This document shows, in pieces, positions 1-62,241 of a stretch of 64,000 bases of DNA. The notes beneath the pieces are model-generated. The model had not been told where the DNA came from. It searched no databases and saw nothing but the letters and a program-made list of their open reading frames with translations. The position numbers were made by a program, and so were the translations under genes. The stretch is from Ginglymostoma cirratum (Eukaryota), in the NCBI GenBank assembly GCA_024137785.1, contig JAHRHZ010000085.1:2294279-2358278 (forward strand). The letters run 5' to 3'. Each line of letters opens with the position of its first letter. Positions within the stretch are counted from its first letter, which is position 1.

Positions 1-351
1 TTCAAGCTCATTTCCAGAAAATGTCAGTTACACTATTGTGAAAGAAGTGTGGGGGTGACCTGTCCCTGTCCATACAAAGTGACCTGTATCTGCTTGCACC
101 AAAGCGGCCCATGTTTGAAAGGCACAAAATGGCCAACAAGGATTAAAACAAAATGTGAAAGCCTGCTCTCGTATTCAATTGAAACACACTGGTACCTTTG
201 AACAAGACTATCCCAAGGTCAGCAAAAGAGCCTTACCACCGACATCCGAGACAGTTCTGATAAGAAGGTGCCTAAGGATGGATAAGTAACTAATCCCAGC
301 CTCCAACAAAAGGATGATGGTCCCAGTAAACAAATAAAACCAATTGTGAGG

Positions 352-3526: not shown

Positions 3527-3655
3527 TTAGTAGCTGCTTTTCACCGCTGCACACACTGGACTTTTTCCTTGGTGTTTGGGTTTTGATGATGTACTGGAAT
3601 CATTGAATTTCAGAACAAGCGAAGTCGGCCTGCTATCTGTCATGCAGTATTTTGT
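3527..3655 (-). CDS. Copy A terminal cytoplasmic exon with degenerate ITIMs (TKYCMTDSRPTSLVLKFNDSSTSSKPKHQGKSPVCAAVKSSY*)
   Basis: gtttttcag| acceptor, phase 0, TAA at 3529-3527; colinear with the ITIM exon at 38563-38697. Confidence 0.72.
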   Translation of the reverse strand, partial: TKYCMTDSRPTSLVLKFNDSSTSSKPKHQGKSPVCAAVKSSY

Positions 3656-6495
3656 CTGAAAAACAACATTGAGGCTGAATTACCATTCATTTAAATCATT
3701 CTCGATGAAAACTGCACAAAGATGGTTAAATGCCATCTCAAAATCAACTCATTATAATGAGTGAACTTGTTGTATACTTATACAACCTTAAATATACCTC
3801 TATATATTTTGATTTCTTTCTGTTGTTTTGACATTATGCCATCCTCAGAACCAACTTGATCAAGAGCAGCATATTGCAGCTTATCCTCAGGCAACTCTCG
3901 TTTTCTCTGGAAAGCCAAGATTTAATGTCATTTGGTTATTTTATTTTGGAGTAAAAGTGTATGTTGTTAATATGAACAATCAGTTTGTTGTACTGAAAAC
4001 AACAAATGCTGGAGATGAAAGTGGGTCACATAACTCTCATGGAGAGAGAGAGCAAGCTAATATTTCCAGACTAGATGACTCTTCATCACAGCTGTGGTAG
4101 CTTGCTCTCTCTCCACGGATGCTGTCTAACCCCCTGCGATCTCCAGCATTTGTTGTTTCCATACAGATTCCAGCATCTGCAGTAATTTGTTGCGACAGAC
4201 TACTGTACTGACTTTGCGAACACTTCATTACAATCGTTACAATTGACAGTTTCTTCCTCTGAATTGTTCCTTGCCAGGAACATCACACCTAATCATAAGC
4301 AACAATTATTTTTCAATACTATTAATGTTAATATAATGTTAATTTAAAGTTTCCAGGGAAGAACACTGCTGAAATAGTTGCATCTGTCAGTCCAATTTAA
4401 TTAGGTTTTTGAATTCTGAGGGATGAATTCCTGTTTTATTACCTTCTGCAACAAACTGAGCATGCAATGAAATTCATTAAATAAAGCAAAAATAAATTTG
4501 TATTCATTTAATAATGACAGGTCCCACTGCTTCATTTTAAAATCATAACTGGCAACTATTTGAAATAAATTGGGAGTGTGCTTCTGAGGTGAGGTCACTC
4601 AACCTGAAACATTAACTCTGAATTCTCTCAACAGATGCTTCCAGACCTGTCGAGCTTTTCCAGCAATTTCTGTTTTTGTTAGTAACGTCTTTCATTTGAA
4701 GGATAAATAGTGCAGGATTTGATTAAAATTTCCCTGACATTAAATTGTTACTTTAGTCAGTCAGTTAGAGAGAAGGAACAACTGTATTTAACACTGCCAT
4801 TAGAAAATTAATTTTAGAATCACCCTGTTCCCTGATGAATAAAGGAAGGTAATTATTTCAATTGGCCATCGAAACAGTAATAAATAAAGGTGTTGAGGGT
4901 GAAGTGAAGACAAAGGTACAGAGCACTTTCAAAGGATTTGCAAGGCATGGGTGATGCCAGATAGCATGTTTAAAGTAAATTATTGATGTTGTAAGTCAGA
5001 AAATATGTCAACTATTTAGGGAGGAATATGGTCAGGTGAGTGACAATGTAAAAATGTGACTTTTGTCAAAAAAGTAAGCCACAATATTTCAGTGTTCTGA
5101 AATGGACTCTTTAGTCTTCTGTGAGGCATTTCTCAATCATAGATAATTTTGTTTTCTCTTTCCATCTGATCCATTGCTCATAAAACAATAAAACACAGGC
5201 TAAGCATTGCACCTGGACATCAGAGGACTTTATTCTGTTACCTACAACAATATCAGTTGCAACATTTCACAAAAAGACGCGCAGTGATGGAGTAAAGAGT
5301 TTGAAGTAATTTCTGAAGACCTCCAGGAAAGGAATTTAATTTTTGCTGCACGTGCAGTGAGTGGGTCTATTCTGCCTGAAGTACTATTTTTAATAGGATG
5401 TGACCCTCAGTGGCAAGGCCAGTATTTGATGCCAATAATCGTTTACTATGAAGAATCCAGCACAACACCAGCTTTCTTGACTGACTGCACTCCAACATTA
5501 TTGTCAGGGAGGAAGTTGCAGGCACCAAATGCAATGAAAGACGAGGGTACTTTTTGTGGTATTATACTCAAGGAAGGAGAATGATTTTTTAAAAAAAATC
5601 AAATTCAGATCCAAGACTGAAGCTGAGATAATAAAGCATTTCAATTGATAAAAAGGCTTTAACTGTTTGAAAATGTATTTAAAGAGAATAAATCTGCTGG
5701 CCTGCACTGCATTCAACCGTTGTCAAGCATAAATATGTGTAATAGCATTGTGTCCCCTGTAGTGGCCAACCAAAGACTTCACGTTTTACCAAACTGTTAT
5801 CAGTTATTCCTGGATAAATGCCACCTGCTCCTTTTCAGGTGCCACAGATAGGGATGTGTCTCTCATATGTCACTGATATTTACGTGTTGAAAATTAAAAA
5901 TGAGAGAGGTTTGCAGCACAACAGCTCATCTATTTGTTTTCCAAGATTGCATGATGCTGCAGCACGTTGCACTAGCAGAGAGACACCCGACAGTAAAAGC
6001 TTTCTCAGGAAGCCAACTTGTGCAAACTGTTGTTTGGCAGAAGTCAGACATAATCACCGAACTCAGACTAATGCTGAGTGAATTTTGAACAGTGTAGAAA
6101 AGAAGGAGGGAATAATCATCTTTATTTGCACCTGGAAACCTACCATTCAAAACAGTCATCAGCCCAATGTAATCAACATTGATTTTCATGTCTGTAACCA
6201 ATGTGGCAAAATTATTCAGCACACTGTCACTTATTAGTGCGAATGAAAACAAAAATCAAAGATATTTCACAATTATGTTTGATGATTTAAAACAGCTGCA
6301 ACAGTTCATGAAACTTCCTACCACTTTCGATTTTCTTTATTGTGTTTTCATTCAGCTGATGTTGTGTTTTTGAGAGCTGATGAAATGTTCAAGACTCACC
6401 TTGACGTGTTAGAAATATGTATTTGTGTTCCCAGCTTAAATTGTTCAATTAGACTTGAAAATTAAAATCAATAGAATGAAGGAAATTTGCCTCAC

Positions 6496-6542
6496 CTCAT
6501 CCTCATACTGAGTTCGATTTATTGATGTTTTCTTTCCCCCAT
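6496..6542 (-). CDS. Copy A cytoplasmic exon (DGGKKTSINRTQYEDE)
   Basis: ttttatttctcag| acceptor, GAG|gtgagg donor, 47 nt, phase 1-0; same-length homologue at 41664-41710. Confidence 0.75.
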
Positions 6543-6957: not shown

Positions 6958-7071
6958 CTTTGGAGATAAAGAACAGAAAACCCTTGGCAATCATCACAGT
7001 CAATATCAGAATTGCAAGTGCACGAGCGGCACAACCGGCAGCCATAGTAACACTGATGTTAGAAGCAAAAT
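6958..7071 (-). CDS. Copy A exon 4: stalk/transmembrane (DFASNISVTMAAGCAARALAILILTVMIAKGFLFFISK), Arg-containing
   Basis: attacag| acceptor, G|gtatga donor, 114 nt, phase 1-1, open and hydrophobic; paralogues at 47268-47381 and 42147-42259. Confidence 0.85.
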
Positions 7072-14345: not shown

Positions 14346-14651
14346 CTTCTTTCGTAACAGTGTAGCTGGCATTTACTGGAAATGAGCTCGAAACGTGGTA
14401 TACTTGACACACGTAGACTATGTCACTTTCGGGCATATTTGGCACGTCCAAGGAGCTGACCACTTCATAAAGTCCCTCGCCTTTTAACTGTTTTACGTTT
14501 CTAAATCCAGTGAGGATTTGTGTACCGTTTCTGCGCCAAGTCAGGTTGAAGTCTTCCGGATAAAAGCCAGATGTCCTGCATTGCAGCTCGAAAGAAACAG
14601 ACGCAGGGTCTTTTAAGGGTATCAACACAATGTTTAGGGGAGCTGGTGAAG
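14346..14651 (-). CDS. Copy A exon 3: Ig C1-set domain
   Basis: aatgcag| acceptor, G|gtaag donor, 306 nt, phase 1-1; LQCRTSGFYP...LTW...YVCQVYH C1 signature. Confidence 0.93.
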
Positions 14652-15331
14652 CTGCATTGTAAATAAAATTCACATAAATGTAGACATTGGACTTCTACTC
14701 CAAAACTGAAATGATTTAATGAACGAACCAACTGTTACTTCTGGGTATGGCGGCTGCATTGATCGTCATTATTTATGCGAGTAGGGGTTGCTGTTACTTT
14801 TATCATGTAGTGACCTCCAAAGGCAATTGATACATCAATTTATACTATCTTGTGTCTCTGTTAATTACTAAATATGTTTGAGTTTTCATACTGCACAGTC
14901 CTCGCAATCAGCGGTTGGGGAACAGAATCATTGAAAATGAAACGGCCGCAGTCCAAGCGAAGGGAAAGGGAAAATGGCTTTTCAAATTTGAAAATAAAAT
15001 GACATTTAAAGTGCTTAATATTGCCGATAACTTCTAGAAAATACATTCTGTTACGCCGTGCTTAAATTGTAATAAGTGCTTCACTTGGAAATCTTGCATT
15101 AGCTTTCAATGTAACACAAATTTAAGTACCATTCGCTGACACAGTGCAATTTCTGAACTGTGCAGTGTCGCTGGTGATGCTTTTTTTTAAAACGGCATTA
15201 TTGAACGTGTCATTCGGAAGAAGTGAACAATCTTATATTCACTGCATGCATTTAAGAACATGTAACTGCTAACTTGCATTTACTGTTCATTGGAACCAAG
15301 TTGACTGAACGTTTACTTTGGTAGCACTAAC

Positions 15332-15643
15332 CGTATACTACAAGTTGCGTAACTTGTTTCTCAGAAACCTTTCCATGCTGATTTTCGAATCTACAGTAAT
15401 ATGTTCCCGCGTCCAGGACAGTCACATTGAAGAGTTTGAGGTCGGCTCTATGTTTCATTACCGTGAAGAGTTTTCTGCTGTCTCCCTTCAGAAGCATCTT
15501 ATTACCTTCTCTCCACCAGAAAACACTTATCTTTGAAGGGTTGGGCTCGAAGGGGAAAAAGCATCGCAGGATAGCTGTTGTATTTATCAGGGTTTTTATT
15601 TGCATAATATCCGGAGTAACATCGTCCGAAGTGCAGACAGCAA
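15332..15643 (-). CDS. Copy A exon 2: Ig V-set domain
   Basis: ttaacag| acceptor, G|gttagt donor, 312 nt, phase 1-1; LRC...VFWWRE...DAGTYYC...TQLVV motifs (B-strand Cys, C-strand Trp, DxGxYxC). Confidence 0.93.
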
Positions 15644-15935
15644 CTGTTAACAAAAGCCATATATACAATGATTAAGCAGGGAAGATGAACTACAACATAA
15701 AATGAAATAATTAATCTAAGACAGTAGCTCTTTGATTTCTCCGTCACTCCCTGAATTTCTGCCCTAACTGAACTATTGCAAATATTTTTTCACTTATTCA
15801 GAGGATTCTTAAAACAAAGAACTCTGACGTTAAAAGCCTATGAGAAAAAGTGTCCGATTATCCATCAAGTATCAGTTCAATTATTCTTCCACGTCAATCA
15901 AGGACATTCCAAACACTGCAGGGAAGAGCACGTAC

Positions 15936-15990
15936 CTGGGTACGAAATGCACAGAAAACAGAAGTTCCACAGTGATCCATTCACAAACAT
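15936..15990 (-). CDS. Copy A exon 1: leader/signal peptide (MFVNGSLWNFCFLCISYP)
   Basis: ATG at 15990; 55-nt exon ending CCAG|gtacgt (phase 1); hydrophobic; paralogous exon at 60475-60529 (+). Confidence 0.85.
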
Positions 15991-16109
15991 AGCGACAACG
16001 AAACCCTGGCAGAAAATACATTGGATGTAAAAAGAGGACTGATGAAAGTTTGTTGGAACATCAGTTATGCATTAATTTTAACCACTTGCTTCTATCTGAA
16101 GGCAAGAAG

Positions 16110-35700: not shown

Positions 35701-38700
35701 GAGCTGTGATAACATCTTCCTGGAGCTAACATACACCTGAACTTCTCAGAACTTATGCTAAGTCAGATCTTTTAGTTATCCTATCACTTCTGTTTCTTTA
35801 ATGAACACAAACTCTGAACTTCAAGGCAATCTAGTTCACTATATATGTCACATTACATCCATCCTTTTCCAAGAGCTTCACAGGACTTCACTACTCAAAG
35901 GTTCTCTCTCAGTAATGTTACATTTACCTCAATCTAAAACAAAATAACTTCCAATCCTCTCTAACGAACATTTGATAACCCATCGTTCATTTTTGGAATT
36001 GTGCATTCAATTTACAAGGATTTTGCCAGGGTTGGAGGTTTTGAACTACAGCAAGACCTGAATAGGCAGGCGCTATTTTTCCTGGAACATCAGAGGCTGA
36101 GGGGCAATTATAGAGGTATATAAATCGTGAGTGGTGTAGATAGAGTGAATAGCCAATGCCTTTTTCCCAGGATAGGTGATTTCTCAACTAGAAAGCATAG
36201 GTTTAAGGTAAGAGGGGAAAGATTTAAAAGGGATTTAAGGGGTAAATTTTTCACACAGAGGATGGTGCTTGTATGGAATAGCCGTCACAGGAAGTGTTGG
36301 AACCTGGAACAATTACAACATTGAAAAAGCGCCTGGATGGGTACATGAATAGGAAAGGCTTGGAGATATATGGGTCAAATGCTGACAAATGGGATCAGAT
36401 TAATTTAGGATATCTGGTTGGCATGGACAAGTTGGATTGAAGGGTCTATTTCTGTGTTGTACAGCTGTGTGACTCTATTGCTCTATTACTAATGTTGTTA
36501 GTTTGCAAGGAATTTTTGACAAAAAAAATCCATGAGTGCACAGAACCCATTCATCCTACAACTATGTCGTGTAATCTGTTTTTTTAAAGCATATGTCATG
36601 GTGGAAACATCTCCCAAGTTAATTATTAACTTCAAATACAGAACTTAAAAATAGCCAGTTTGTAACACAAAATCAGAAGCTTAAGCTCGCACTCAACATT
36701 ATGTATATTTAAATCCTACAGGGAAGTGTAGGACTGAATCAGGAATAACTTGAGTGGAAAAATATACCTGCTTTACTTATCATAATAATGTAAACCTTGA
36801 TATTTAGTTTTTACTGCAGTAAAACAATCAGCACAACACTCCTGAAATTTTGACTGACACAAATATGAAAACAGAGTAGCTGCAGTACTGCAGAAATGCA
36901 AAGGAAAATGAGGATTATAGACATTAAATGGTCTTGACTTGTCAAGATGTTTGTTTCTGAGATGCTGCAAGCATCTTTGTAGGGAGGTGTTTTGTTGAAA
37001 AGTGTTGGTCGTCATTAGAGGTGGGTTATCAAGGTTGAAACATTAGGAGAACATTGGAATGAAGGAGCACTACTATTTGTTACATGCACTTTAAAAGTCA
37101 TGTTTGAGTCAAAAATATTGCCAATTAACGAAGTCAAGGAGGCATTGGCAGTATGGTCATGTTGATGGTGCAGTACATCATTGAACCACAACAATGTTCT
37201 GAGATCATGGGGTAAGATTCCATGATGGCAGAAGGGGAAAATTGGATTCAATTTACAAATCCAGAATTGAAAATTAGTCTAATTTCATAGAATCGCTACA
37301 GCGTGAAAACAGGCCCATCAGCCCAACAAGTCCACACCAACCTTCAAAGCATCCCACCTAGATCCACCCACTGTAACTCACTGAATCTACTCATTCCCTG
37401 TACACTATGAGCAATTTACCATGGCCAATCCACTTAGCCTGCACATCTTTGGATTGTGAGAGGAAACTGGAGCACCTGGCGGAAACCCACGCAGACACAG
37501 GGAGAAAATGTCAACTCCACACAGACAATTGCCTGAGGGTGGAATCGAACCCAGGTCCCTGGTGCTGTGAGCCACCGTGCTGCCCATTATGTTGGTGGGA
37601 GAACTATAGGGGATTGAGTCAGGTTGGGAAATTGGAGTTGATGTGGGTCATGATCAGCTTCTCGAAGCATTCCATGATTATTGAAGTCAGAGCTATTGGA
37701 CAAACATCATTAAGGCACACTGCATGTGTTTGTGATCATGTTTCATAATTGTGATCATGTAACACTCGTGAATTTTGTAAAAACATTTTGGGATTATTAA
37801 CGCGCATTACAGAAGGAAATGTACCGATCCTTATTAGCTCTGACCTGAATGTGACTCAAGAACCAATGTCATGTGGTTGACTCTTAATGGCTCCCTAAAC
37901 ATTCCTCACAAGCTAACATGCAAGTAGGAGTGGGAAATAATTGGAGCCAATTATCACTTGGGCCTATTTAGCTTCACAAAAGAAAAAAAAAGGCATTGAT
38001 ACTTCTGCAGAACAAGCATGACATAGACAGCACTGATAAAATCAGAATTGTTGCTTGAATGATAATAGCTCGAACAAAAAAGTCAAATCAAAAAATATAA
38101 TAAAACATCAACAAATTAAAAAGATTAAAACAATGAACAACTGATACATAAGTTTGACACAGTAAAAACCATCCTACGCTGAAAGAAAAGACAAAAGGAA
38201 ATGAAAATATCAGTATTTTCATGATGTAACTAGCAGTGAAATGGTGAGAAAAATATGCCAGTTTAGGAGCTCTTAGAAAGCTATTCAAAAACAACAATAT
38301 TTACTTCTTAGGTGAAACATAACAGAGAGTTCTAGAGATTTATGAGTTTAGTAGTTTGAATGAAGCCAGTTGCTATCTCAAATTGTGCATGTTAAACAAG
38401 TTTGAAGGCAAAATAGATTTAGTTCATGAGACATTAAAAGAAGACAAGAAGTGAATGACTGCTTTTTGAAAGCGATGAAAGACCACAAAGAGGACTGCAC
38501 CAGACAGAAATGGATACGAAACACCCATAATACCAATATCTCTTCATTTTGACTGTGCATTTTTAAATTTGGCTGCTGGCTTTCACTGCTGCATACGATG
38601 GAGTTGCAGTTTTGTGTTCTGGTTTCAAGGTGAACTTGGGACCATTCAATTTCAGAGCAGCATACGTCACCTGGCTTTTTCTCATTCTGTCTTTGGTCTG

Positions 38701-39139
38701 TAAAATTACATTGAAAGTAATTCATTTTTGCTTTGAATTTCATCAAAAGCTAAGAACTTTTCACTGTTGTTCAGAAACCAAATGATTATAACTAAGAAAA
38801 TAATTACTGTATTCAAACATATGACCAGAAAAGTACCTCTGCATGTACTGTTCTTTCATCCTGGAGCTTAGGAATATTAGCATCCTGTGAGTGGACCAGT
38901 TTAAGATCAGCATACGTTAATCTGTCTTCAGATGTCTCTTTTTGCCTCTGGTAAGTTAAAGCTTAAAATCCATGAATTTATGTTTTCTGGAGTCAAGAAT
39001 CAACATTGCATAGTAATCAATAACAATTATTTTGTCTCATTGAGTTTGCTAGCATTCTGTTACATTCTTAATAGTTGAAATCCTCTGTATCCAATCTCCA
39101 TCACTTCACTGGACAAAAATGAAAGCTGCCTCATTGTCT

Positions 39140-39326
39140 GATGATGTGGAGGTGCTGGTGTTGGACTGGGGTTGACAACGTCAGAAACCACATGACACCA
39201 GGTTATAGTCCAAAAGATTTGTTTGAAAACACAAGCTTTCAGAGCCTCACTTGTTCTTCAGCTATCTGAAAATGCAACTGCAAATACTCACTCTCTCTCT
39301 CTGTCTCCCATTCACACACACACACA

Positions 39327-39364
<38 letters not shown>

Positions 39365-39915
39365 CACACACACATGCACGAACACACGTATATAAATGCA
39401 CACACACATGTGAATCTATGGGGTGAATTTGTATTTGCAGATCCATTTTATTTCGGTCAAAAAGCACACAATTTATAGGCAGTCAGTCAATGTGTGGCAT
39501 TTTATAAATTATTACTTTAGAGATAAAGCCAGTCTGACTCCAAACCAAAACACAATTCTAAGCAAGGCCTCACATCTAACATGCATTGTCTGATATTAAA
39601 TGTCATCTTTGCTTTGCACGAATAAATCCTTTAGTTGTCTCAGAACAGTGACTTGAAAGGAATTTAGGGATTCACATGGGGATATTAATCAATTAAAACC
39701 TTCTAACTGATTGAAGATTTAACAGCACCTCAGGTTTGTTTAATATATCCTGATTAGTAGTGTTTTACTAATTTTTTAATGTTTTACATATAAATTCTCT
39801 GCCTGATACTGCCTCTCTCACTAACACTTGAAGAAGGACTGAGGCTCTGAAAGCTTGTGTTTTCAAATAAACGTGTTGCACTACAACCTGGTTGTCTTGT
39901 GATTTTTGACCTTGA
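39140..39915. mobile_element. Non-autonomous Penelope-like element with inverted ends and internal (CA)n
   Basis: caccaggttatagtccaa...ttgcactacaacctgg inverted ends; same family as the flanks of 21630-23955. Confidence 0.7.
39313..39410. repeat. (CA)n microsatellite
   Basis: Direct inspection. Confidence 0.95.
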
Positions 39916-42699
39916 CAAAAATCTGGTGATACCTTGCTCGCAAGCTATGAAAATTTAAGTTTGAGTATGTTGAAGCTTAGAAGATGAACTCTGCAGAATT
40001 CAGTTTCCAGAGCATAAAATGATTGTATTAATTCAACATTATCAATTTTCAACATTCATACAGAAATCATTCAACATTACATCCTGTTACAAGTTAAAGA
40101 TACTATGAATGTTTTGCTCTTAAATTTTGATGCAACTGATCTGAATTTCCTTTACAAATATAAATAAAGTTACTTAAACATATGACTGTTCAATTGGAAA
40201 TAAAAGTACAATTCAAACCGTGCGCAATAGATAAACATCTATGCTATTATTGGTTGTCTGGTGCATTAATTGGTTTCAAAATGGCATCTATTGTATTTTT
40301 GGCTTAATGTTTAAATTAATAAGATAATTATACTGATAGAAGCAATCATTTATTGGTAAGTTGAATAGCAATGAAATAATTAGATCTCTTTAATTATGTC
40401 AATAGCACAGTTTGCATGATAATGAAGCTTTTTTAGTGAAAATGATCATGCAATCCAATTCCGTTGAATCTTTAAAGTACACAAAATACCATACAGTATT
40501 GCCCTGAAAATTGTTAATTTCTACCTGAAGTTTTTTTGTTAGGATATATACATGTGGCAACAGATTAATTGGGAACCTGGTCATGTACAGAACAATGAAA
40601 TAATTGAATAGTTAACCAATGTTGTTCCTTCCATGCAAAGAACCAAACACAAAGTGTCAATTTTGTTTTACACACGTACTCTCAGACATTTTATGCAATA
40701 TTGTTTTAATATGGGCAATTATTCATTTTCTTGATATCTGCACCTCTGCACCTGAGTCATTGAAATATGGAGTCACAACCTGACAAGACCAGGGGAAATG
40801 AAGGGAGGCATTAGCAAAGCTGAGGAACATGTTAAATAACACAATTTCAAGGGCAGCTACTCAATGCATGTAACACTGACAATAAGCTAAATGATTCAAA
40901 ACAAATAAACATAATAAATGAATGGCTTTCGTCCAATTGACATGAAAACACATCACTGCAGGGTGATCAGGAGAACTGATTATTCAATGATATTTAGGAT
41001 GGGCAAAGGAAAAGAGGATATATTTGTATTACATTAATAGTAATGGATGGGATTTGTATCTTAGGATCACAGATCAGAATAAAAAAAAGAGGAATCTTCC
41101 ATGGTGGACCTAAGAAAGAGCAAGCAGGAGGAAACATTGGCAGTTGCTTATAAGCCACAAACACCAGTAATAATGGGAAGCATAGACAAAACAAAAAGAT
41201 CGGTTAAGTGTTGTACATAGTTTTTGCAACAATCATGTCTGGATTCAATCAAAACATAGGTTTGACGAAGAAATGAGCACTGTAGTTGTGAAGGATGAGT
41301 TTCAGAGTGTGTTAGGGATAGTTTTCTGGAGCAGTTATGTTTAGGAACAGACTACAGAACTATGTCTATCTTGCAACGTGCGACAAATAATAATTAACAA
41401 TATTGTTGCAAAAGAATCTTGAAACATGAATAACTGTACAATGATGGATTTAGCCATGACAAGTATGATAGTTGTTAATGTTTGTAATACTTTCAATCAT
41501 TTCTTTCTGTATGTTACTTTCATGGTCAAGGCTAAGTTGCACTTTTGTCATGACAATAAAACTGTTTGACTTCATCCAGATAGATTAAAACAGATTACTT
41601 TGATTGCAGTGACTGAATCATTCAGATAAGTTTCAAAGCAAAGTTGATGGCGAAAGGCCTTACCTCATCTATGGGTTGAGTAGGATTTCTTGCTTTTTCC
41701 TTTGAACCAGGTGGCAATAAATTTGGCATTATTTGTCAAGACAAGCATGATGTTTGCATTCATCAGTAAGATGGCAAAATACACTGCGATTCACATCAAC
41801 ACAAGGTAGAATAAGCTAACTGGATTCAGGATGTAACTCAAAATGTTGAACTCAAGTACAATTATTTAGTTTGTGTTGAAGCTTTCAAAATATTACTTCA
41901 TCAGTGAAATTCACTGGACTACCTTCAGATCTGAAAAGATAGGAATTAGCAGACTAAAGCTGTGACCCTGAACATGTCATGCTGGTGTTGAAGTGACACA
42001 AATGCGTGCAAGCAGTTTCATGTCATATATTTATTTTAACTGGACAAGTCAGATTTCAGTACCCAATAATGTGAATGCACCACTGTTTGCTTAATCAATA
42101 CTTGTGTGGAAGTTATTTCATTTCACATGTATATTCCTATTCATACCTTTAGATATAATGAATAGAAGACACTTCACAACCATACTGTGCATAATAGAAT
42201 TGCAAATGCTCCAGTGGCATATCCAGCAACAACAGCAACACTGATTTTAGAGGCAAAATCTATGAGATGAACATAAAATTAAAATTAGAAATTGTATCGG
42301 AAACCAGAGACTTATAAATTTAAATATCACATGCTTCTTTTCCCATTAAACTGCCTTGGTAATATTCTACTACGATACATGAAATCTCACATGTCAATTT
42401 CTTCCCTCAGCTTTCCTTTATGCAGTTGGATACAAAGAGGGAAAATTATAAGAATTTGGAGAAATAAAAGCAGATGAAACAATAAAGATAATTAATATAT
42501 CCAAATTCAGCAGTATTCAATTAATGTGTTCAAATCAGATTCCAGTGAAAATGGGAGAATGTTCTCTGAGATTCATTTCTGAGCACAAATAAGTTGACAC
42601 ATTTTCAAAGAAAATCTTTCTCCATGTGCAGCCAATCTAACTGTTGAGTGAAGACAATTGCATATTCATAGTTCACTGGACTAACAATAGAGAACTCCA

Positions 42700-43980
42700 A
42701 GTTCTTGGCTCATGGATTTTAATGCCACCAGGGCAGATGGTGGAATTTGAATTCAATAAGAACCTGAAATGGTGTTTGCCAGAAAAACACAGCTCTCCTT
42801 GCTATTGGAAAGATGTTGTTAAACATGAAAGCATTCAGAAAAGGTTTGCAAGGATGTTGCCAGGCTTGGAGGGTTTCAGCTACAGAGAGAGGCTGAAGCG
42901 GCTGGGGCTATTTTCTCTGGAACCTCAAAAGCTGAGGGGTGACCTTATAAAGGTTTGTACAATCATTCCGGCTATGGATAGGTTGAATAGTCAAGGTATT
43001 TTCCCCAGGGTGGGGTAGTCCTAAATGAGAGGACATAGGTTTAAGGTGAGAGGGTAAAGATTTAAAATGGACCTAAGGTGTGACTTTACACAGAGGGGGT
43101 GGCTCGTTTATGGACTGAACTGTCAGAAGATGAGGAAGCATCTGGTACAATTTCAACATTTAAAAGGCATCGGGGTGGGTATATGAATAGGAATGGTTTG
43201 GAGAGACATGTGCTGGCAAACAGGAGGAGATTAACTTGGGAAATTTGGTCGGAATGGACGAGTTGAAGCAAAGGGTCTGTTTCTGTGTTGTATGTCTCTA
43301 TGACTGAATGATCAGGTACTTTTGGAAGTAATTCTGCCAACATTAACTGTCCTGCAAGTGAGTCACTGCAAATTGGATCATTGTTAACCACCCCTTTGGC
43401 AATTAGGTATAGACAACACATGTCCTCCCATTAAGCAATACCTTCAATGAAATCAAAAGATCTACTAATCTCTGTTGAATGTTATGATAGGTGGGTACAC
43501 TCTTGGCTACATTCTGAATGCATGTGAAGATATTTATTGGGCTTTGGAAGAAGTAACATAACAGGAATACTCAATGAAGGGCATGACACTAGGAAATGCT
43601 TGGACTTCTGACCACAGATCCCTAAAGGATGCAGGGCAGTTCAATGGGGTGGTTGGCAAAACATACAGGGCATATGATTTTATCAGTAATGGTGTAGATT
43701 TAGAAGAGAAAAGAAGCTGCATTGGAGTTTAACAGGACTTTGGTTAGGCCACAGCTGGAGCACTGTGTGCAGTTCTGGTTGCCACACTATCATGTGTTCA
43801 TCTTAAAACATCTCCAAAACAGACCATTAAGCCTTAAGGTTTAATTGGACATGACAATGTGCAATTGAAGACAAGTGGAAAATCACAATGCTTTCAGCAA
43901 AACAGCTTGTGTTGGCTGGGAGGGAAACAATATAGTGCAGTTAAAAAGGAGCCATGTTGAAGTGTTTTTCAATTTGTTTC
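42700..43980. repeat. More diverged direct duplicate of ~8110-9420 (C1-TM intron of copy C)
   Basis: Shares the CR1 fragment and the unique flanks (gtcctgca..tgcaaattggat; gaagacaagtggaaaa). Confidence 0.8.
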
Positions 43981-45195
43981 TGTTAGAAGTCATAGGACAC
44001 TAGGTTATAGTCCAACAGGATTTTTTGGAATAACAAGCTTTCCAAGCGCTGTTCATGCATCAGGTGAATATAAAAGCTTTTTCCCAGAGTGGGGGACTCA
44101 ATTACTAGGGGTCATGAGTTCGAAGTGAGAGGAGGAATGTTTACGGGAGATATGCATGGAAAGTTCTTTATGCAGAGGGTGGTGGGTGCCTGGAACATTT
44201 TGCCAGCGGAGGTGGTAGACGCAGACACATTAGTTTCTTTTAAGATGTAACTGAACAGGTACATGGATGAACAGGGAGCAAAGGGATACAGACCCTTAGA
44301 AAATAGATGACAGATATAGAATCACCCTGTTCACTTCTGAATAAGGGAGGGTAATTATTTCAACAGGCCATCTAAAAGGTAATAAATAAATGTTTTGAAG
44401 GGTGAATTGAAGAGAAAGGTACAGAGCACTTTCAAAGGATTTGCAAGGTATACCTGATGCTAGACAGAATGTTTCAAGTAAATTATTGATGTTTTAAGTT
44501 AGAAATTGTGTCAACTATTTAGGGAGGAATATGGTCAAGTGAGTGACAATGAAAAAATGTGACTTTTGTCTAAGACATAAAGCACAATATTTCAGTGCTC
44601 TAAAATGGACTCTTTGGTCTTCTGTGACGTATTCCTCAATCATAGGTAATTTTGTTTTCTCTTTCCATCTGATCCACTGCTCATGAAACAAAAAAAAACT
44701 ACAGGATAAGCATTGCACCTGGACATCAGAGGACTTTACTCTGTTACTTACAACAGTGCAGCTGCAACATTATCACAGAAAGACGTGCAGTAATGGAGTT
44801 AAGTCTTTGACATAATTTTCTGAAGACCTCCAAGGAAGGAATTTAATTTTAGCTGCACCTGCAGTATGTAAGTGGGTCTACTGTGCACGACATACTATTT
44901 TTAATAGGATGTGAGCCTCAGTGGCAAGGCCAGTATTTGGCGCCAACAACTGTTTCCTATTAAGAGTCCAGAGGCAAACCAGCTTTCTTGACTGCAGCCC
45001 AGGTAATTTAACAACATTGTTGTCAAGGACGGAGTTGCGGGTATCAGATGTAATGAAAGAGTCGGGTACTTTTTGCAGTATTTTACTCAACGAAGGAGAA
45101 TGCAATTTTTTCAAAAGCAAATTCAGATCCATGACTGAAACAGAGATAATAAAGCGATTCAACTTATTTAAAGACTTTAACTGCTTTAATTCACT

Positions 45196-45954
45196 TTGAT
45201 TCACTTTGGGAAGAATAATAGGAAAGCAGAATACTGGGTCAATGGAAAGATTCTTGGTAGTGTGGATGTGCAGAGGGATCTTGGTGTCCAGGTACATAGA
45301 TCCCTGAAAGTTGCCACCCAGGTTGATAGTGCTGTTAAGAAGGCATACGGTGTGTTAGGTTTCATTGGTAGAGGGATTGAGTTCCGGAGCCGTGATGTCA
45401 TGCTGCAACTGTACAGAACGCTGGTGCGGCCTCACTTAGAATATTGTGTACAGTTCTGGTCGCCCCATTACAGGAAGGATGTGGAAGCATTGGAAAGGGT
45501 GCAGAGGAGATTTACCAGGATGTTGCCTGGTCTGGAGCGAAGGTCTTATGAGGAAAGGCTGAGGGACTTGGGCCTATTCTCATTGGAGAGAAGAAGGCTA
45601 AGAGGGGATTTAATAGAGACCTACAAAATGATCAGAGGATTAGACAGGGTGGACAGTGAGAGTCTTTTTCCTAGGATGATGACATCGGCTAGTACGAGGG
45701 GGCATAGCTGCAAATTGAGGAGTGACAGATTTAAGACAGATGTCAGAGGCAGGTTCTTTACTCAGAGAATGGTAAGGGCGTGGAATGCCCTGCCTGCCAA
45801 TGTAGTTAACACAGCCACATTAGGGGCATTTAAACATTCCTTGGATAAGCATATGGATGATGATGGGATAGTGTAGGGGGCGAGCTTAGTTCACAGGTCG
45901 GCGTAACATCGAGGGCCAAAGGGCCTGTTCTGCGCTGTATTGTTCTATGTTCTA
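45196..45954 (+). mobile_element. Young 5'-truncated CR1/HER1 LINE
   Basis: Uninterrupted 226-aa ORF2 C-terminus (RPHLEYCVQFWSP), ttctatgttcta tail; absent at the paralogous site near 5668. Confidence 0.93.
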
Positions 45955-46802
45955 AAATGCATTTAAAGAGGTAATCAGCTGGTGTGCTTTGCATTCAATT
46001 GTAGTCAAGAATAAATATGTGTAATTGCGCTGTGTCCCTTGGTGGGTCAACCAAAGATTTCAACTTTTGCCAAACACTTCTTCCTGAATAAGTCCCACCT
46101 GCTCTTTTTCAGGTGCCACAGATAGGGATCTGCCTCTCACATGTCACTGGTATTCACATGTTGAAAATTAAAAAATGAGAGAGGTTTGCATCACTATAGC
46201 TTGATTATTTGTTCGACATGATTGCATGGTGCGGCAGCACATTGCACTAGCTGAGAGGCAGTCTTCAGTAAAAGCTTTCTAAAGAAGCCAACTTGTACAA
46301 GCTGTCTGCATAATATATTGATTTCTTTGGTAGAGTCGCTTCGCAGAAGTCAGACATATTCACTGAACTCAGACTAATGCATGATTGATTTTTGAATGGC
46401 GTGGAAAGGAAGGAGAGAACGATCATCTCTATCTGCACCTGGAACCTATCATTCAGAATAGTCATCAGCCCAAAGTAATCAACATTGATTGTAAGGTCTG
46501 TAACCAATATGGAAAAATTATTCAGCATACTGTCACTTGGTAAGTGCGAATAAAAACAAAAATCAAATCTACTTCGCAACTATGTTTGATGATTTAAAAC
46601 AGTTGCAACAGTTCATGAAACTTCCTACCACTTTCTGTTTTCTTTATTTTGTTTCTATTCAGCTGATGTTGTGTTTTTGAGAGTTAATCAAATGTTCAAG
46701 ACTCACCTTGACTTTTTAGAAATATATATCTGCATTCCCAGCTTAAATTGTTCAAAGAAACTTGAAAATGAAAATGAAAAGAACGAAGGAAATTTGCCTC
46801 AC

Positions 46803-47381
46803 CACATCTTCATGCTGAGTTTGATTGATTGATTTTATTCTTTCCTCCACCTGAGACATAAAACTGACATAAGTCGGGAACAAAAAAGGCTGACATTTGT
46901 ACTCATCAGCAAACCAAAGAAACCGAAAGCTATTTGACTACTGTTCAGTATTTGTAAACAGGGTATAATAGGAAAAACATTTTCACAATGCAGCTCTAAA
47001 GGTTACACACAGATGCTTTGAATTTATGTTTTCAGGGTTGAAGCAATAACAACTTCTTTCAGCAATGAATTTCATCAATAAAATTTTGACCTACACTGAT
47101 ACTAGTTCGCAAAGTGAATCTTAAAATCTTCTTATATTATGTTTGGTGTGAAGCAAGGTATATGCTTGAAAGAGGCTTCACATAAAATAGTTGTTTAAAT
47201 TGTACGGCTCAAAAATTCAGCTCCCAATTATGTTAATTTCAGTGAGACATTTCTACCTTATTCATACCTTTGCAGATAAAGAACAGAAAACCCTTGGCAA
47301 TCGTCACGGTCAATATGAGAATTACAAATGCACGAGTAACACAACTGGCAGCCCTAGTAACACTGACTTCAGAGGCAAAAT
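46803..47381 (-). pseudogene. Copy B: Arg-type TM exon (47268-47381, DFASEVSVTRAASCVTRAFVILILTVTIAKGFLFFICK) and frameshifted cytoplasmic exon (46803-46850)
   Basis: Lies in the direct duplicate of 4820-8670; cytoplasmic exon is 48 nt vs 47 with an in-frame TGA; ectodomain exons deleted. Confidence 0.8.
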
Positions 47382-50300
47382 CTGGAATGGTAATATAAAT
47401 TTAAAATTAAGAATTGCAACAGAATCTGAAGATACACAGGCTTAATCGTCAAATCGATAATTGTCAATCATACTGCCTTGCACAGATGATACATCGAGTA
47501 CATAAAGTCTCAGCATTTCAATTTTGCTGTCTTTTTGTTCAACTGACCCATATGCAGCTGGAAACAAAATGTCGAGAGCTTAGGAAAATAGGTAAATGAT
47601 AAAAGTACCTCAGCTAATGACACATTTAAAATTAATGGAAATAGAGAAAATTGCAATCAGTGATAACAAGGTGTAGAGCTAGATGAACACAGCAGGGCAA
47701 GCATTATCTCTGATACAAATTGCAATCAGTGTTCAGTTCACGAAGCTGTGTAGCAAGATACTAAATTGTTTGTTGGGAGTTTGTTGGATTGCATGCAAAT
47801 TAAAGTCGGAAAAGGTACATAATGGAACCTGTTTTCAGATTTACTTGGGTTTTCCATGGAGGTGAAGTTCAGTTGAAATAATTTGAATCTCTCTGCAGCT
47901 GCGACCCAATCAGCTATGACTCCATGTTCAGTATTTAATCAAGTATGTGGCATTCTGATGAATGGGGGAAATAAAGTGGAGCTATTGGATGTGTGGAAGT
48001 CTATCATCGGCTCATACAGGTTTACAACACGGAAACAGGCTCTTTCACCCAACTTGTCAATGCTGCCCAGTTTTCACAAATAAACTTGTGCTATTTGCCT
48101 ACGTTTGGTCCATTCCCCGATATACCCAGCCCAGCCATGTATTTTCCAAATGTTTTTTTAAATGACAAAATTGTACTCACCTCCACCACTATCTCTGGCA
48201 GATTGTTCCAGACACGCACCACCCTGTTTGTCAAAAATTGCTCCTCTGGATTCATTTGTATCTCTCCCCTCTTACATTAAACATATGCCTTCTAGTCTTA
48301 GACTCTCCTACCATGGGGAAAAGCTGGAAGCTAACTATGTACGGCTGCGTCTCATGATTTTCCCTTCTCCCTTCAGTCTCCTATGCTCTCGGGAAAGAAA
48401 GCCCACCCTATGCAGCCTAACCTTATAACTCAAATCTTCCAGTCCATGGAGTATCCAAGGAAATCTTATCTGCATTCTTTCTTGGTTAATAATATCCTTT
48501 CTATAATAGAGCAACTCGAGCTAAATGATGCAATTTGAATTACATAAAAACCTGGAATAGTGTTTGTCTTAAAACCAATAATCAATCAGGAGAGGCTGAA
48601 TAGGCTGGAGCTGTTTTCTCTGGAGGGTCGGAGTCTGTGGGGTGACCTTACACAGGTTTATAAAATCATAGGCCATGGATAGGATGAATAGTCACTATTT
48701 TTCCCTGTGTAGAGGATTACAAAACTAGAGGGTGTGGGTTTGAGGTAACAGGGGTATGATTTTAAAAGAGGTCAAAGGGCAACTTTTTCATGCAGAGGTT
48801 GCTGTGTGTCTGGAATGAACTGCCAGATGGAGTGGTAGATGCTGGTACAATTGCAACATTTAAAAGGCACCTGGATTGGTGTATGATAGGAAGGGCTTGG
48901 AAGGATATGGACCAACTGTTGGCAAATGGGACGAGATTAATTTAGGATAGCTAGTAGGCATAGATGAAGTGGAACAAAGGGTCTGTTTCCATGCTGTTGG
49001 AATATCAGTTATGCATCATTTCTGATCACTTGCGATCTATATGAAGTCAACAAGCACATAACTAGTTCCTGATGAGTGGACAACATACATGCGTTTTCAT
49101 GGTAACAATGAGCAGAAATGATAACATGGATAGACAACTGCAGTTATAGCAAAATCTAAGCCTAGATGGTGAAACTACTGTCAGAGCATGTATCCACTCA
49201 CATGACCCACCAGGCTTGGGTGAAATATCGGCCGGACCAATACAAAACTCCATCCTTCAATTTTTTTTAACTCGCAGCCACATAACGATAATATCCTTTC
49301 TTTGAGAACATTTTTCTCAGAATTTCAATTCTGCCACAGAACACAACTAAGGTTTTTTTCAAAGGAAACACTTGTTTTGGTGGCACCGTGGCTCAGAGGC
49401 CCCTTTATCCCCAATCTCTACCAGTCTTTTTTCCAGTCAGCCCATCTGCTATCTATGCCAGTATCTTTCCCCTAACAACATTGGCTCTTATCTCCTACCT
49501 TCCTGTGCAGTATCGTGACAAAGGCCTTCTGGAAACCCAAATAGATCAGGTCCACTGGCTGTCCTTTGTCTAACTTTGTTGTTACCTCCATGAAGAATTC
49601 CAACGGATCTGTCAGGCATGAACTCCCCTTGATGAAGCCGTGCTAACTCAGCCTTATTTTGACATGCACTCCCAAGTACTCCACAATCTCACCCTAAACA
49701 ATGGTCTCTAAATTCTTACCAACAACAGAGGTCAGGCTAACTGTCTTATAGTTTCCAGTCTTCTGCCTCTCTCCCTTTCTAAACAGGGGTGCTCTGTTAG
49801 CCATTTTCCAGTCCTCTGGGACCCTTCTGAGCTCCAGTGATTCCTGAAAGATCACTAACAATGCCTCTACAATCTCCTCAGCTGTTTTCCTCAGAACCCT
49901 GGTTTGTAGTCCATCTAGTCTATATTATTTGTCCACCTTCACAGCTTTCAGCTTCCCAAGCACCTTCTGCTTATTGATCTCTATTACACTTATCTCTGCT
50001 GCTTCAGTCTCTTGAAGTACTGGTATGCTACTGGTGTCTTCCACTGTGAAGAGGGTGGCAAAGTACCTACTCAGTTCCTCCCCCATTTCTTGCTGCCAAT
50101 ACTAATTCTCCAGCCTCATTTTCCAGGAGTCTGACACACTTTCCATTCTCTTACATTTTCAATATCTGAAAAAAAAACAACTCTTGAAATCTTCTTTTAT
50201 AAAAGTGCAGGGAGAGAGCGTGTGAGGCTCTGAGATGGATAATGTACATGTATGAGGGGATTAGAGGATGGCAAGATGGAGAGTTCAGGGTGAGCAAGAT

Positions 50301-60474: not shown

Positions 60475-62241
60475 ATGTTTGTGAGTGGATCACTGTGGAA
60501 CTTATTTTTTTTGTGCATTTCGTATCCAGGTACATGCTCCTTCTAACAGTGTTTGAAACGTTCTTGGTCGAGGTGGAAGAATAATTGAACTTATATTTGA
60601 AGGATAATCAGACACTTCTTTTCCGAAGTTTTTCACGGCAGAGTTCCTTGCCCTCTGGATAAGTGAAAAAAATGTTTGCGATCGTTCAGTCCGGGTAAAT
60701 ATTCAGATAGTGACGCAGAATTCGAAGAGCAAGACATGGTAAATTGTTACTCTGTGAACGTATTGAATTAATTGTTATTTCATGTTGCAGATCATCTTCG
60801 CTGTTCATTCATTGGATGTATCTTTTGTTAAAAGTAGTTGTCTGCTCTTCGGAAAACGTTAATCCGGATATTACGCAAACAAAGGCCCCGATAAATACAA
60901 CAGCTACCCTGCGATGCCTTTTCTCCTTTGAGCTCAACCGTTCAAACATTCAGGTTTTCTGGTGGCGAGAAGGTAATGAGAAGTTGATTCTGAAGGAGGG
61001 CGGCAGAATAAAAAAGCTTTACAGTACTGAAACGCAGAGCCTACCTCCATCTCTTCAACGTGACTGTCCTGGACGCTGGAACATATTACTGTCGAGACAA
61101 AACTCAGCAACAAAAGGGTTCTGAGAAACAAGCTATTCAACTTCAGAGATAAAAGGTACTGCAGATGCTGGAGAATCCGAGATAACAAGCATGGGGCTGG
61201 ATGAACACAACTTGTTGTTTACGGTTAGTGTCACCCTAGTAAACGTTAAGTCTTGGTTCCAGTGAACAGTGAATACGATTCGCAGGTACATTTTCTTAAA
61301 AATATACATATATATGCGGTGGAAGCCGAATATAAAGTTGTTCACTTCTTCGGGACGACATGTTCAATAACGCGATAAAAAAGAAAGCATCACCAGCGAC
61401 ACTGCACACTTCAGCAACTGCACTGTATCAGCATATGGTGTTGAAATTTGTGCTGTGTAGAAAGCTAATGCAAGACTTCCAAGTGAAGCATTTTTTACAA
61501 TTTAAGCATGGAGTAACAGAGTGTATTGTCTCGAGGTTATCGGCAATATTAAGCACTTTAAGTGTCATTTTATTTTGAACTTTGAGAAGCCATTTTCCTA
61601 TTCCCCTCCTTTGGACTGTGGCTGTGTCATTTTCAATGATCCACTTCCCAAACCACTGATGGCGAGGAGTGTACAGTATGAAAACTCACACATTTTTGTA
61701 TTAATTAATATGGACAGAAATTAGTTTCCAATTTTGCTGAACATACAGGTAATATATCAATTGCATTAGGAGGTCGCTACATGATAAAAGTAATAGCAAC
61801 CCCTACCAATGTAGATAATGACGATCAATGCAGCTGCCGTACTCAGAAGTAACGGTTGGTTAGTTCATTAAATTGTTCAAGTTGTGGGATAGAAGTCCAA
61901 TGTCCATATTTATGTGAATTTTATTTGCAATGCAGCTTTACCATCTCCCCTAAACATTGTATTGATACGTTCTGAAGATCCTTCATCTCCTCATTTCATG
62001 CTGCAAGGCAGGACATCTGGCTTTTATCCGCAAGACCTTAACCTTACTTGGCACAGAAACAGCACACAAATCTTCACTGGATTTAGAAATGTACAACAGG
62101 CAAAAGGCGACGGACTTTATGGAGTGGTCAGCTCCTTGGACATGCCAAATATACCAGAATGTGACGCAGTCTACATGCGTCAAATATATCACATTTCAAG
62201 CTCTTTTCCAGTAAATGCTAGTTACACTGTTTCGAAAGAAG
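60475..62241 (+). pseudogene. Copy D: leader (60475-60529), V (60835-61223) and C1 (61936-62241) pseudogene
   Basis: Splice sites retained; V frameshifted near 61005-61020 and interrupted by a 64-bp insertion; C1 frame open but both canonical Cys lost (LQGRT, YMRQ). TM exon not in window. Confidence 0.88.

What the first reader, a model, noticed from the sequence alone, without database searches (positions are those of the whole stretch)
14346..15990. Antigen-receptor-like V + C1 ectodomain encoded without rearrangement
Seen: one exon encodes the whole V domain including the G strand (SEKQVTQLVV), keeping TxLxV but lacking the J-type FGxG diglycine. No heptamer-spacer-nonamer was seen next to it, and a true C1 exon follows. 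Established: C1-set domains are largely confined to Ig, TCR, MHC, tapasin, SIRP and B7-like proteins. Inference: a germline-joined V-C1 signalling receptor bears on models of the pre-RAG antigen-receptor ancestor. Loss of GxG suggests it does not pair V-V like Ig/TCR. Six N-x-S/T sites (NTT, NVT, NLT, NGT, NAS, NIS) predict heavy glycosylation.
Basis: partly seen in the sequence, partly recalled or inferred. Interest (0 to 1): 0.7.

Follow-up and report, generated by a model that had tools for sequence, protein, structure and literature searches.

The report
Tail-swapped shark SIRP-like paired receptor
This is a spliced shark gene for an antibody-like cell-surface receptor, one of more than sixty copies, whose outer part is almost identical to a neighbouring 'brake' receptor but whose membrane anchor and shortened inner tail match a different copy, so it likely acts as the weakened or activating partner of that brake.

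Summary
The exons are real and spliced, but this is no lone relic. The gene (leader, V-like, C1, TM, three tail exons; 321 aa) is one of at least 65 V/81 C1 copies on two contigs, and the family occurs in sharks, rays and a chimaera. Most members keep J-like GxG (47 of 50 public proteins); this subclade lost it recently. The first domain lacks C'/C'' and folds I-set/VNAR-like; C1 is genuine. Intact members carry a SIRP-alpha-like four-tyrosine tail; others a short tail with TM Arg: a paired-receptor system. This copy is 98% identical in its ectodomain to a four-tyrosine twin 78 kb away, but has a different Arg-bearing TM and a frameshifted one-ITIM tail; the match switches inside the C1-TM intron and the trees conflict, which points to tail swapping. 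Flanking genes (AMFR, BBS2, BCAR1) place the family on the human-16q counterpart, likely paralogous to the SIRP (20) and TCR-alpha/delta (14q11) regions; no link to the MHC class I contig was found. The scan noted this family before on neighbouring DNA; I saw neither the swap nor the synteny in those notes.

The parts
15936..15990 (-). Leader exon (18 codons, split leader completed by the next exon)
   Evidence: ATG, GT donor, phase 1; same exon in 15 paralogues; its joint is not seen in RNA
15332..15643 (-). Short V(J)-like domain exon, no C'/C'' strands, G strand without GxG
   Evidence: RNA joint to C1
14346..14651 (-). C1-set domain exon
   Evidence: Pfam C1-set E 3e-10; relative's C domain matches MHC class II beta2, Z 16.3, rmsd 1.3 over 99 residues
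8533..9764 (.). Interval in the C1-TM intron where similarity switches from the twin gene (91-93% upstream) to other paralogues (89-92% downstream): inferred recombination point, beside LINE fragments
6958..7071 (-). Transmembrane exon with Cys238, Arg241, Lys254
   Evidence: RNA contig with 0 differences and joint to tail exon 1. The C1-TM joint itself was not shown in RNA
6496..6542 (-). Tail exon 1 (one Tyr, Y-E-D-E)
   Evidence: RNA joints on both sides
3798..3906 (-). Tail exon 2, 109 nt, with the one remaining ITIM (L-Q-Y-A-A-L); 2 nt shorter than the 111-nt form that keeps the last exon in frame
   Evidence: RNA contig with 0 differences, joints 3906/6496 and 3655/3798; paralogue alignment
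3527..3655 (-). Tail exon 3: read out of frame in the main form (stop ends at 3633, 321 aa); read in the old frame when exon 2 is skipped (stop ends at 3527, 320 aa), where both distal tyrosines are lost
15968..16006 (+). 23-RSS look-alike across the leader exon, judged incidental
38566..47399 (-). Orphan signalling modules of the same family: an Arg-type TM exon with tail exon 1, then a frameshifted Gly-type TM exon with four-tyrosine-type tail exons; no same-strand V-C1 upstream in the window
60480..62240 (+). Broken paralogue (leader, frameshifted V exon, C1 exon without its cysteines); start approximate

Best explanation
This gene is one member of a large cartilaginous-fish family of non-rearranging V(J)-C1 paired receptors; it joins the ectodomain of an inhibitory-type twin to a different Arg-bearing transmembrane exon and a truncated one-ITIM tail, likely through recombination in the C1-TM intron, and so likely binds the same or a nearly the same ligand as the twin while giving a weaker brake or an activating signal. 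Shown: exon structure, four of the six joints plus an exon-skipping joint in RNA contigs, family size, the twin, the switch in similarity, the loss of the distal tyrosine motifs. Inferred from established knowledge: four-tyrosine members recruit SHP-1/SHP-2 as SIRP-alpha does; a TM Arg near the outer face couples to an FcR-gamma/CD3-zeta-type adaptor as in KIR2DL4 (about 0.4 for this copy); the exon-2-skipped form has no ITIM and would be the activating or decoy form. Inferred: expression on myeloid or NK-like cells, a self or pathogen ligand bound by the BC and FG loops as a monomer or non-Fv-type dimer, and pathogen pressure as the reason for repeated re-pairing of ectodomains and tails.
For: Family: 70 V and 98 C1 matches in the genome, i.e. 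at least 65 V and 81 C1 places on C84/C85 after merging split hits and removing 10 C1 hits on other contigs. 53 public relatives, all chondrichthyan, including Callorhinchus; they fall into ITIM/ITSM-tailed and short-tailed TM-Arg forms. Twin at C85:2.231 Mb: ectodomain exons 98.1% identical, TM region 64.4%, no Arg, four-tyrosine tail. Gene at C85:2.494 Mb: ectodomain 86.1%, TM region 93.3%; it has its own Gly-type ectodomain partner at 2.850 Mb (bootstrap 99). Ectodomain and TM trees of 14 genes reject each other (AU p 1.6e-6 and 1e-56, 2000 replicates, fewer than the program advises). TM Arg in 10 of 22 TM exons of this group, Lys in 22 of 22. dN/dS about 1.1 and 1.0 in BC and FG loops against 0.38 in core strands among 6 close paralogues. 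SIRP likeness: SIRP-alpha domain 3 is the best-scoring lone C domain among the five chains shown (48.9 bits; Ig and UrIg2 C domains 22-35); SIRP-alpha clusters rank first in the Atlas for a four-tyrosine relative (0.96).
Against: No functional data. The C1-TM joint was not seen in RNA, so ectodomain-TM linkage rests on nearest same-strand exon and phase (one public model of the sister group, P0222, links the same TM type). RNA support comes from contigs of runs whose RNA nature is a guess; a poly-A raw-read run gave 1 read on V-C1. The TM exon derives from the inhibitory type: its Lys aligns with the residue that ends the helix in relatives, and best 19-23-residue windows place Arg at the outer boundary (rough recalled scale), at a spacing unlike the family's own short-tailed Arg forms. 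Most tails of this group are damaged (1 of 14 keeps all motifs in frame), which also fits decay. Loop dN/dS near 1 fits relaxed constraint as well as diversifying selection. For V+C1 together Ig light chains score 72-74 bits (others up to about 90), SIRP-alpha 66, so sequence does not single out SIRP. Which of the two twins is the recombinant is not settled.
Confidence: 0.7

Rival explanations
1. A decaying copy or signalling-dead decoy: the gene is still spliced but the tail frameshift, stop and Tyr losses are steps of pseudogenisation in a birth-and-death cluster, and the TM Arg is neutral drift.
For: Many neighbours have stops or frameshifts; 13 of 14 tails of this group are shortened or damaged; low RNA depth.
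Against: Leader, V, C1 and TM are intact with canonical splice sites; the ITIM is kept; the Arg/Lys TM type is shared with a Stegostoma model (P0222), so it is old; core strands are under purifying selection.
Confidence: 0.18
2. A B7-H6/B7-like ligand or co-signalling molecule rather than a receptor.
For: V+C1 layout; B7-H6 is the best two-domain structural match of a relative (Z 15.6, rmsd 5.0 over 193; tied with several others); several relatives are auto-named NCR3LG1-like or CD276-like.
Against: ITIM/ITSM tails and charged-TM short-tail forms are receptor features; J-like GxG and short V; dozens of copies; earlier scan notes (unchecked) place the deposited shark B7-H6 on another piece.
Confidence: 0.05
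3. [quoted passage not shown]
For: Two-domain VJ-C1-TM is the layout proposed for the precursor (PMC12227049, Fig. 2 legend); split leader; light chains score highest for V+C1; chromosome likely paralogous to 14q11.
Against: V lacks C'/C'' and the Phe/Trp of FGxG; this copy has lost GxG; tail is SIRP-alpha-like; no RSS; UrIg/UrIg2 have fuller V domains and closer linkage to MHC and TCR/IgH (PMC12227049).
Confidence: 0.07

Closest known systems
SIRP family (SIRP-alpha/SHPS-1, SIRP-beta1, SIRP-gamma)
   Same: Germline VJ + C1, paired inhibitory and charged-TM forms, tandem cluster, two-unit four-tyrosine tail; best lone C-domain score and top Atlas clusters; RefSeq often names members 'PTPNS1-like'.
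   Different: One C1 instead of two (PMC12975943); V shorter still; activating forms use Arg, not a DAP12-type central Lys (SIRP-beta Lys recalled); lies among 16q-type genes; no Ig exon found in 300 kb around shark NSFL1C/FAM110.
KIR2DL4 and KIR/LILR-type paired receptors
   Same: Charged TM residue plus one ITIM (KIR2DL4 has an ITIM and associates with FcR-gamma, PMC3533184); near-identical ectodomains on opposite tails.
   Different: KIR/LILR use C2-type domains; no sequence relation tested; analogy of mechanism only.
UrIg / UrIg2 (shark non-rearranging antigen-receptor-like genes)
   Same: Single-exon VJ followed by C1, split leader, cartilaginous fish; UrIg2 V also lacks the G-strand bulge and pairs unlike an Fv (PMC12227049).
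   Different: UrIg has 3 and UrIg2 9-11 C domains, single genes, MHC- or TCR/IgH-linked; V+C1 score only 60 bits to this family's profile.
IgNAR V domain (VNAR)
   Same: No C'/C'' strands; best V-only structural match of a relative (8ht3, Z 15.0, rmsd 1.9 over 99).
   Different: VNAR rearranges; 19% identity; the shared deletion may be convergent.
NKp30/NCR3 and teleost NITR
   Same: Germline VJ with G-x-G-T-x-L-x-V, TM Arg or ITIM forms (recalled; listed as joined-VJ genes in PMC11599192).
   Different: NKp30 is V-only and MHC-linked; NITR has V + I domains; neither has a C1 domain (recalled).
RefSeq-modelled chondrichthyan V-C1 genes (e.g. XP_067853500.1, XP_067853492.1, XP_078066431.1, XP_067905929.1)
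   Same: Same family; subfamilies shared across shark orders.
   Different: Only automatic, inconsistent names (tapasin-related, Ig lambda-like, NCR3LG1-like, MHC-like, PTPNS1-like); this gene's own subclade had no close record.

Membership tests
SIRP | One V-set plus two C1-set domains (PMC12975943) | tested here: not met
   One C1 exon only; no further Ig exon between 14346 and 7071; relatives 230-490 aa with one C1
SIRP | Germline-joined VJ with GxG | tested here: met
   Met for the family (47 of 50 public, 24 of 44 own V exons); lost in this gene
SIRP | Inhibitory member with two ITIM/ITSM units; paired charged-TM member | tested here: met
   Twin and relatives have two tail exons each with Y-x-x-L and T-x-Y-x-x-V type motifs; short-tail Arg forms exist. 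This gene keeps one ITIM
SIRP | Position beside NSFL1C (human 20p13; neighbours recalled) | tested here: not met
   NSFL1C and FAM110 lie on C87, the family on C84/C85 beside AMFR, BBS2, an OSGIN-type and an SLC38-type gene
SIRP | Monophyly with tetrapod SIRPs | not testable with these tools
   No SIRP sequence was returned as a usable protein; only profile scores and Atlas ranks
SIRP | CD47 binding | not testable with these tools
   Needs binding assay
Ig/TCR (rearranging antigen receptors) | Split V and J segments flanked by 12/23 RSS | tested here: not met
   G strand in the V exon; none of 44 V exons has an abutting RSS, 4 of 44 have only loose look-alikes 15-22 nt into the intron
Ig/TCR (rearranging antigen receptors) | Nine-strand V domain with C'/C'' and F/W-G-x-G | tested here: not met
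   Models lack C'/C''; 1 of 47 has F/W-G-x-G
Ig/TCR (rearranging antigen receptors) | C1-set constant domain | tested here: met
B7-H6 (NCR3LG1) | V + C1 ectodomain | tested here: met
B7-H6 (NCR3LG1) | One-to-one orthology | tested here: not met
   At least 65 paralogous V exons; B7-H6 is not among the 60 best PDB chains for the family profile, which alone is inconclusive
TAPBPL / tapasin | Long N-terminal region before the C1 domain, low copy number (recalled) | tested here: not met
   Only a 103-residue domain precedes C1; multigene family
UrIg/UrIg2 | VJ followed by three or more C1 domains, MHC or TCR/IgH linkage | tested here: not met
   One C1; MHC class I matches on C2, C146, C197, none on C84/C85; no proteasome-subunit match on C84/C85. 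Contig-level only

The most novel reading that the evidence does not exclude
The family is the surviving third sister of SIRP and of the Ig/TCR precursor: a pre-RAG VJ-C1 paired-receptor locus was copied by the vertebrate genome doublings onto the chromosomes now seen as human 16q (this shark family), 20 (SIRP) and 14q11 (TCR-alpha/delta, with IgH in sharks). That would move the birthplace of antigen receptors from the MHC paralogon to the 14q11/16q/20/8q paralogon, and make the ancestor an on/off innate receptor that diversified by swapping ectodomains and tails before RAG arrived.
Probability: 0.15. Interest if true: 0.9.

Novelty: new variant of a known kind. Interest (0 to 1): 0.55.

Why it matters
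No KIR, LILR, SIRP or NITR counterpart is established for cartilaginous fish in the papers I could read, and a 2022 review states that the origin of SIRPs is unknown (PMC9652883). A 60-plus-gene paired VJ-C1 family reaching back to the shark-chimaera split is the obvious candidate for the shark self-recognition system and for the root of SIRPs. This gene and its twin are a ready-made natural experiment: the same ectodomain on two tails. The position among 16q-type genes gives a testable alternative to the view that antigen receptors arose in the MHC paralogon.

Tried and rejected
Single-exon protein search found no relative; the profile search of representatives was swamped by titin-like proteins, with turtle multi-V receptors the best per-domain non-shark hits at 44-52 bits against 102-121 for shark members. 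RSS idea rejected. A first gene model ending inside tail exon 2 was corrected by RNA joints. Marker searches for MHC class I, SEP, cadherin, forkhead, homeodomain, TALE and proteasome gave no match on C84/C85; only the 7tm_1 search did. A Pfam scan of 149 of 205 unmasked ORFs from 190 kb of samples gave one weak IBR hit of no use for synteny. Ten stretches beside the C84 cluster and four on C85 were all N. The group statistic compared only two labels and was not used; losses were read from the tree. Four rows (L053, L061, L068, L074) were left out of that tree as broken. No run on record as RNA was listed as a holder. Ten full-text searches found no paper describing this family; Ohta 2019, Dornburg and Yoder 2022, Flajnik 2023 and Flajnik 2012 were not held and may mention it. 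The elephant-shark genome supplement had no hit for SIRP, NKp30, ITIM or LILR.

Full report
Observation. The window is shark DNA, G000:C85:2294279-2358278. On the minus strand lie a leader exon (15990-15936), an Ig exon (15643-15332) and a C1 exon (14651-14346), then after a 7.3-kb intron a TM exon (7071-6958) and three tail exons (6542-6496, 3906-3798, from 3655). Contigs of runs that are probably RNA show the joints V-C1, TM-tail 1, tail 1-tail 2, tail 2-tail 3 and a skip of tail 2; the pieces on the TM exon and tail exon 2 have no differences from the window. Leader-V and C1-TM joints were not shown. The main form is 321 aa, the skipped form 320 aa.

Domains. Exon 3 is C1-set (E 3e-10); in a relative the domain matches MHC class II beta2 at Z 16.3. 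Exon 2 is borderline: V-set 28.6, I-set 28.4 bits, 56 residues between the cysteines. The model (pLDDT 88.6) has A', B, C, D, E, F, G and no C'/C''; NCAM2 and titin I-set domains head both fold searches. A GxG-bearing relative from Heptranchias also lacks C'/C'' and its best V-only match is a VNAR (Z 15.0). All 41 aligned V exons match V-set, 39 match I-set. So the domain is a shortened VJ-type domain.

Family. The V exon gives 70 and the C1 exon 98 matches in the genome (lower bounds). After merging 5 and 7 split hits and removing 10 C1 hits on other contigs, at least 65 V and 81 C1 places remain, in clusters at C85 1.76-3.78, 9.6-9.86 and 14.4 Mb and C84 0-0.06 and 6.74-7.48 Mb; many carry stops or frameshifts. 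A profile search returned 53 proteins, all from sharks, rays and Callorhinchus, under inconsistent automatic names (only the 7,993 candidates sharing most words were scored, so bony-fish relatives are not excluded). Within most species the records share one chromosome length. Of 50 with a readable F strand, 47 keep G-x-G, 43 of these with a glycosylation sequon at the start of the G strand and 1 with Phe/Trp. On a 77-row tree the GxG-less group holding this gene (14 rows, support 100/99) has a GxG-bearing sister, and three other losses lie elsewhere. The loss is therefore recent and repeated.

Signalling parts. Relatives carry either tails with two to four tyrosine motifs in ITIM + ITSM-like units, or a short tail with Arg at the outer end of the TM. 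This is the definition of paired receptors (PMC3533184, passages read). Among 22 TM exons of the group around this gene, 10 have Arg, 1 His, 11 Gly at that site, and all 22 have the later Lys. In this gene tail exon 2 is 109 nt; the 111-nt form seen in 4 of 14 paralogues keeps the last exon in the frame that encodes two more tyrosine motifs. Here the main form stops early with one ITIM, and the skipped form reads the old frame but both tyrosines are gone.

Tail swap. The gene at C85:2.231 Mb is 98.1% identical in V+C1 exons but 64.4% around the TM exon, has Gly instead of Arg and a full four-tyrosine tail. Similarity to it is 91-93% from 17.5 kb down to 9.76 kb of the window and then falls to about 72%; from 8.5 kb down the window is 89-92% like the modules at C85:2.507 and 3.536 Mb. 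Ectodomain and TM trees of 14 genes reject each other, and a second Arg/Gly pair with matched ectodomains appears. Genes were paired with the nearest same-strand TM exon. I infer recombination or conversion in the long intron; the direction is open. BC and FG loops have dN/dS about 1, core strands 0.38 (6 genes), which fits a variable binding surface but does not prove positive selection.

Mechanism. Most likely the twin is a SHP-recruiting brake and this copy is its weakened or activating partner, in the manner of KIR2DL4 (ITIM plus FcR-gamma association, PMC3533184). Adaptor coupling is uncertain (about 0.4): the TM exon is a modified inhibitory-type exon and Arg sits at the outer boundary of the best hydrophobic windows (recalled scale). 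Decay is the main rival.

Position. No MHC class I match lies on C84/C85. The C84 cluster is followed within 120 kb by AMFR and BBS2; BCAR1 and several LTB4 receptor-like genes lie at C84:17.1-17.25 Mb; the C85 cluster is followed by an oxidoreductase and an amino-acid transporter that I read as OSGIN1 and SLC38A8/A7 (Pfam; names recalled). From memory these are human 16q13 and 16q23 genes, LTB4R and the BCAR1 paralogue EFS are at 14q11-12, and CASS4 at 20q13. Papers give SIRPA 20p13, TRAC and TRD 14q11.2 (PMC13112774, passages) and ZFHX2/3/4 at 14q11.2/16q22.3/8q21, TSHZ1/2/3 at 18q22/20q13/19q12 (PMC2211742, passages), in line with a 14q11/16q/20/8q paralogy that is otherwise recalled. That C84 and C85 share a chromosome is inferred from these markers. 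In 300 kb around NSFL1C and FAM110 on C87 my V and C1 profiles found no Ig exon; the rest of C87 was not searched. Current models derive the 14q11 antigen-receptor region from the MHC paralogon (PMC12227049, first three of eight parts read; PMC10751288, passages and one section); immune clusters also move, so the position is suggestive only.

Comparison. It works like SIRP-alpha/beta: SIRP-alpha domain 3 is the best lone C domain among five chains shown (48.9 bits) and SIRP-alpha clusters lead the Atlas list. It is not filed as a SIRP: one C1 instead of two (PMC12975943, passages) and no NSFL1C linkage; for V+C1 together light chains score as high or higher. It fails the tests for Ig/TCR, UrIg, TAPBPL and one-to-one B7-H6.

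Novelty. The genes are modelled in RefSeq and the scan has noted the family three times. Ten searches found no paper on it, but four key papers were not held, and their supplements may list members. Of PMC9652883, PMC11599192 and PMC6795676 I saw passages only; of PMC3964593 a supplement search only. Verdict: real, a new variant of a known kind, interest 0.55.

Noticed in passing
window 38566-47399 (-): Two orphan signalling modules in tandem (Arg-type TM + tail exon 1, then Gly-type TM with a frameshift + four-tyrosine-type exons), opposite in strand to the broken V-C1 at 60.5-62.2 kb; possibly split by an inversion.
   Followed up: partly
window 1-46 (+): End of the C1 exon of another broken paralogue (G000:C85:2293049-2294324).
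   Followed up: no
window 15968-16006 (+): Perfect RSS heptamer, 23-nt spacer and 7/9 nonamer across the leader exon; heptamer intact in about half of 15 paralogues.
   Followed up: yes
L132-L141, L112-L114 (G000:C84:17.12-17.25 Mb): BCAR1 lies next to a cluster of LTB4 receptor-like genes (three read in full, two more partly); in humans LTB4R sits near the BCAR1 paralogue EFS (recalled), so this may be a retained genome-doubling copy.
   Followed up: partly
L072, L073, L075 (G000:C84:5-62 kb) and L061-L063 (G000:C85:2.61-2.75 Mb): The start of C84 repeats three genes of the C85 cluster in the same order at about 90% identity: a segmental duplicate or a second haplotype in the assembly.
   Followed up: no
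P0046, P0067, P0095: Turtle multi-V receptors with N-G-T-G-T G strands and an ITIM/ITSM tail are the best non-shark per-domain matches (44-52 bits); possible tetrapod relatives without C1.
   Followed up: no
L107:3364-3837 (G000:C85:14.44 Mb): Cys-rich RBR/IBR-like exon beside the lone family member at 14.42 Mb; not identified.
   Followed up: partly
L046, L048: A SINE is inserted at the same place at the start of tail exon 2 in two paralogues, removing the acceptor.
   Followed up: no
L183:3780-4754 and L200-L201 (G000:C87:11.08-11.22 Mb): A TRH-receptor-like GPCR and an MFSD2-like transporter flank NSFL1C/FAM110 where tetrapods have the SIRP cluster (names recalled).
   Followed up: no
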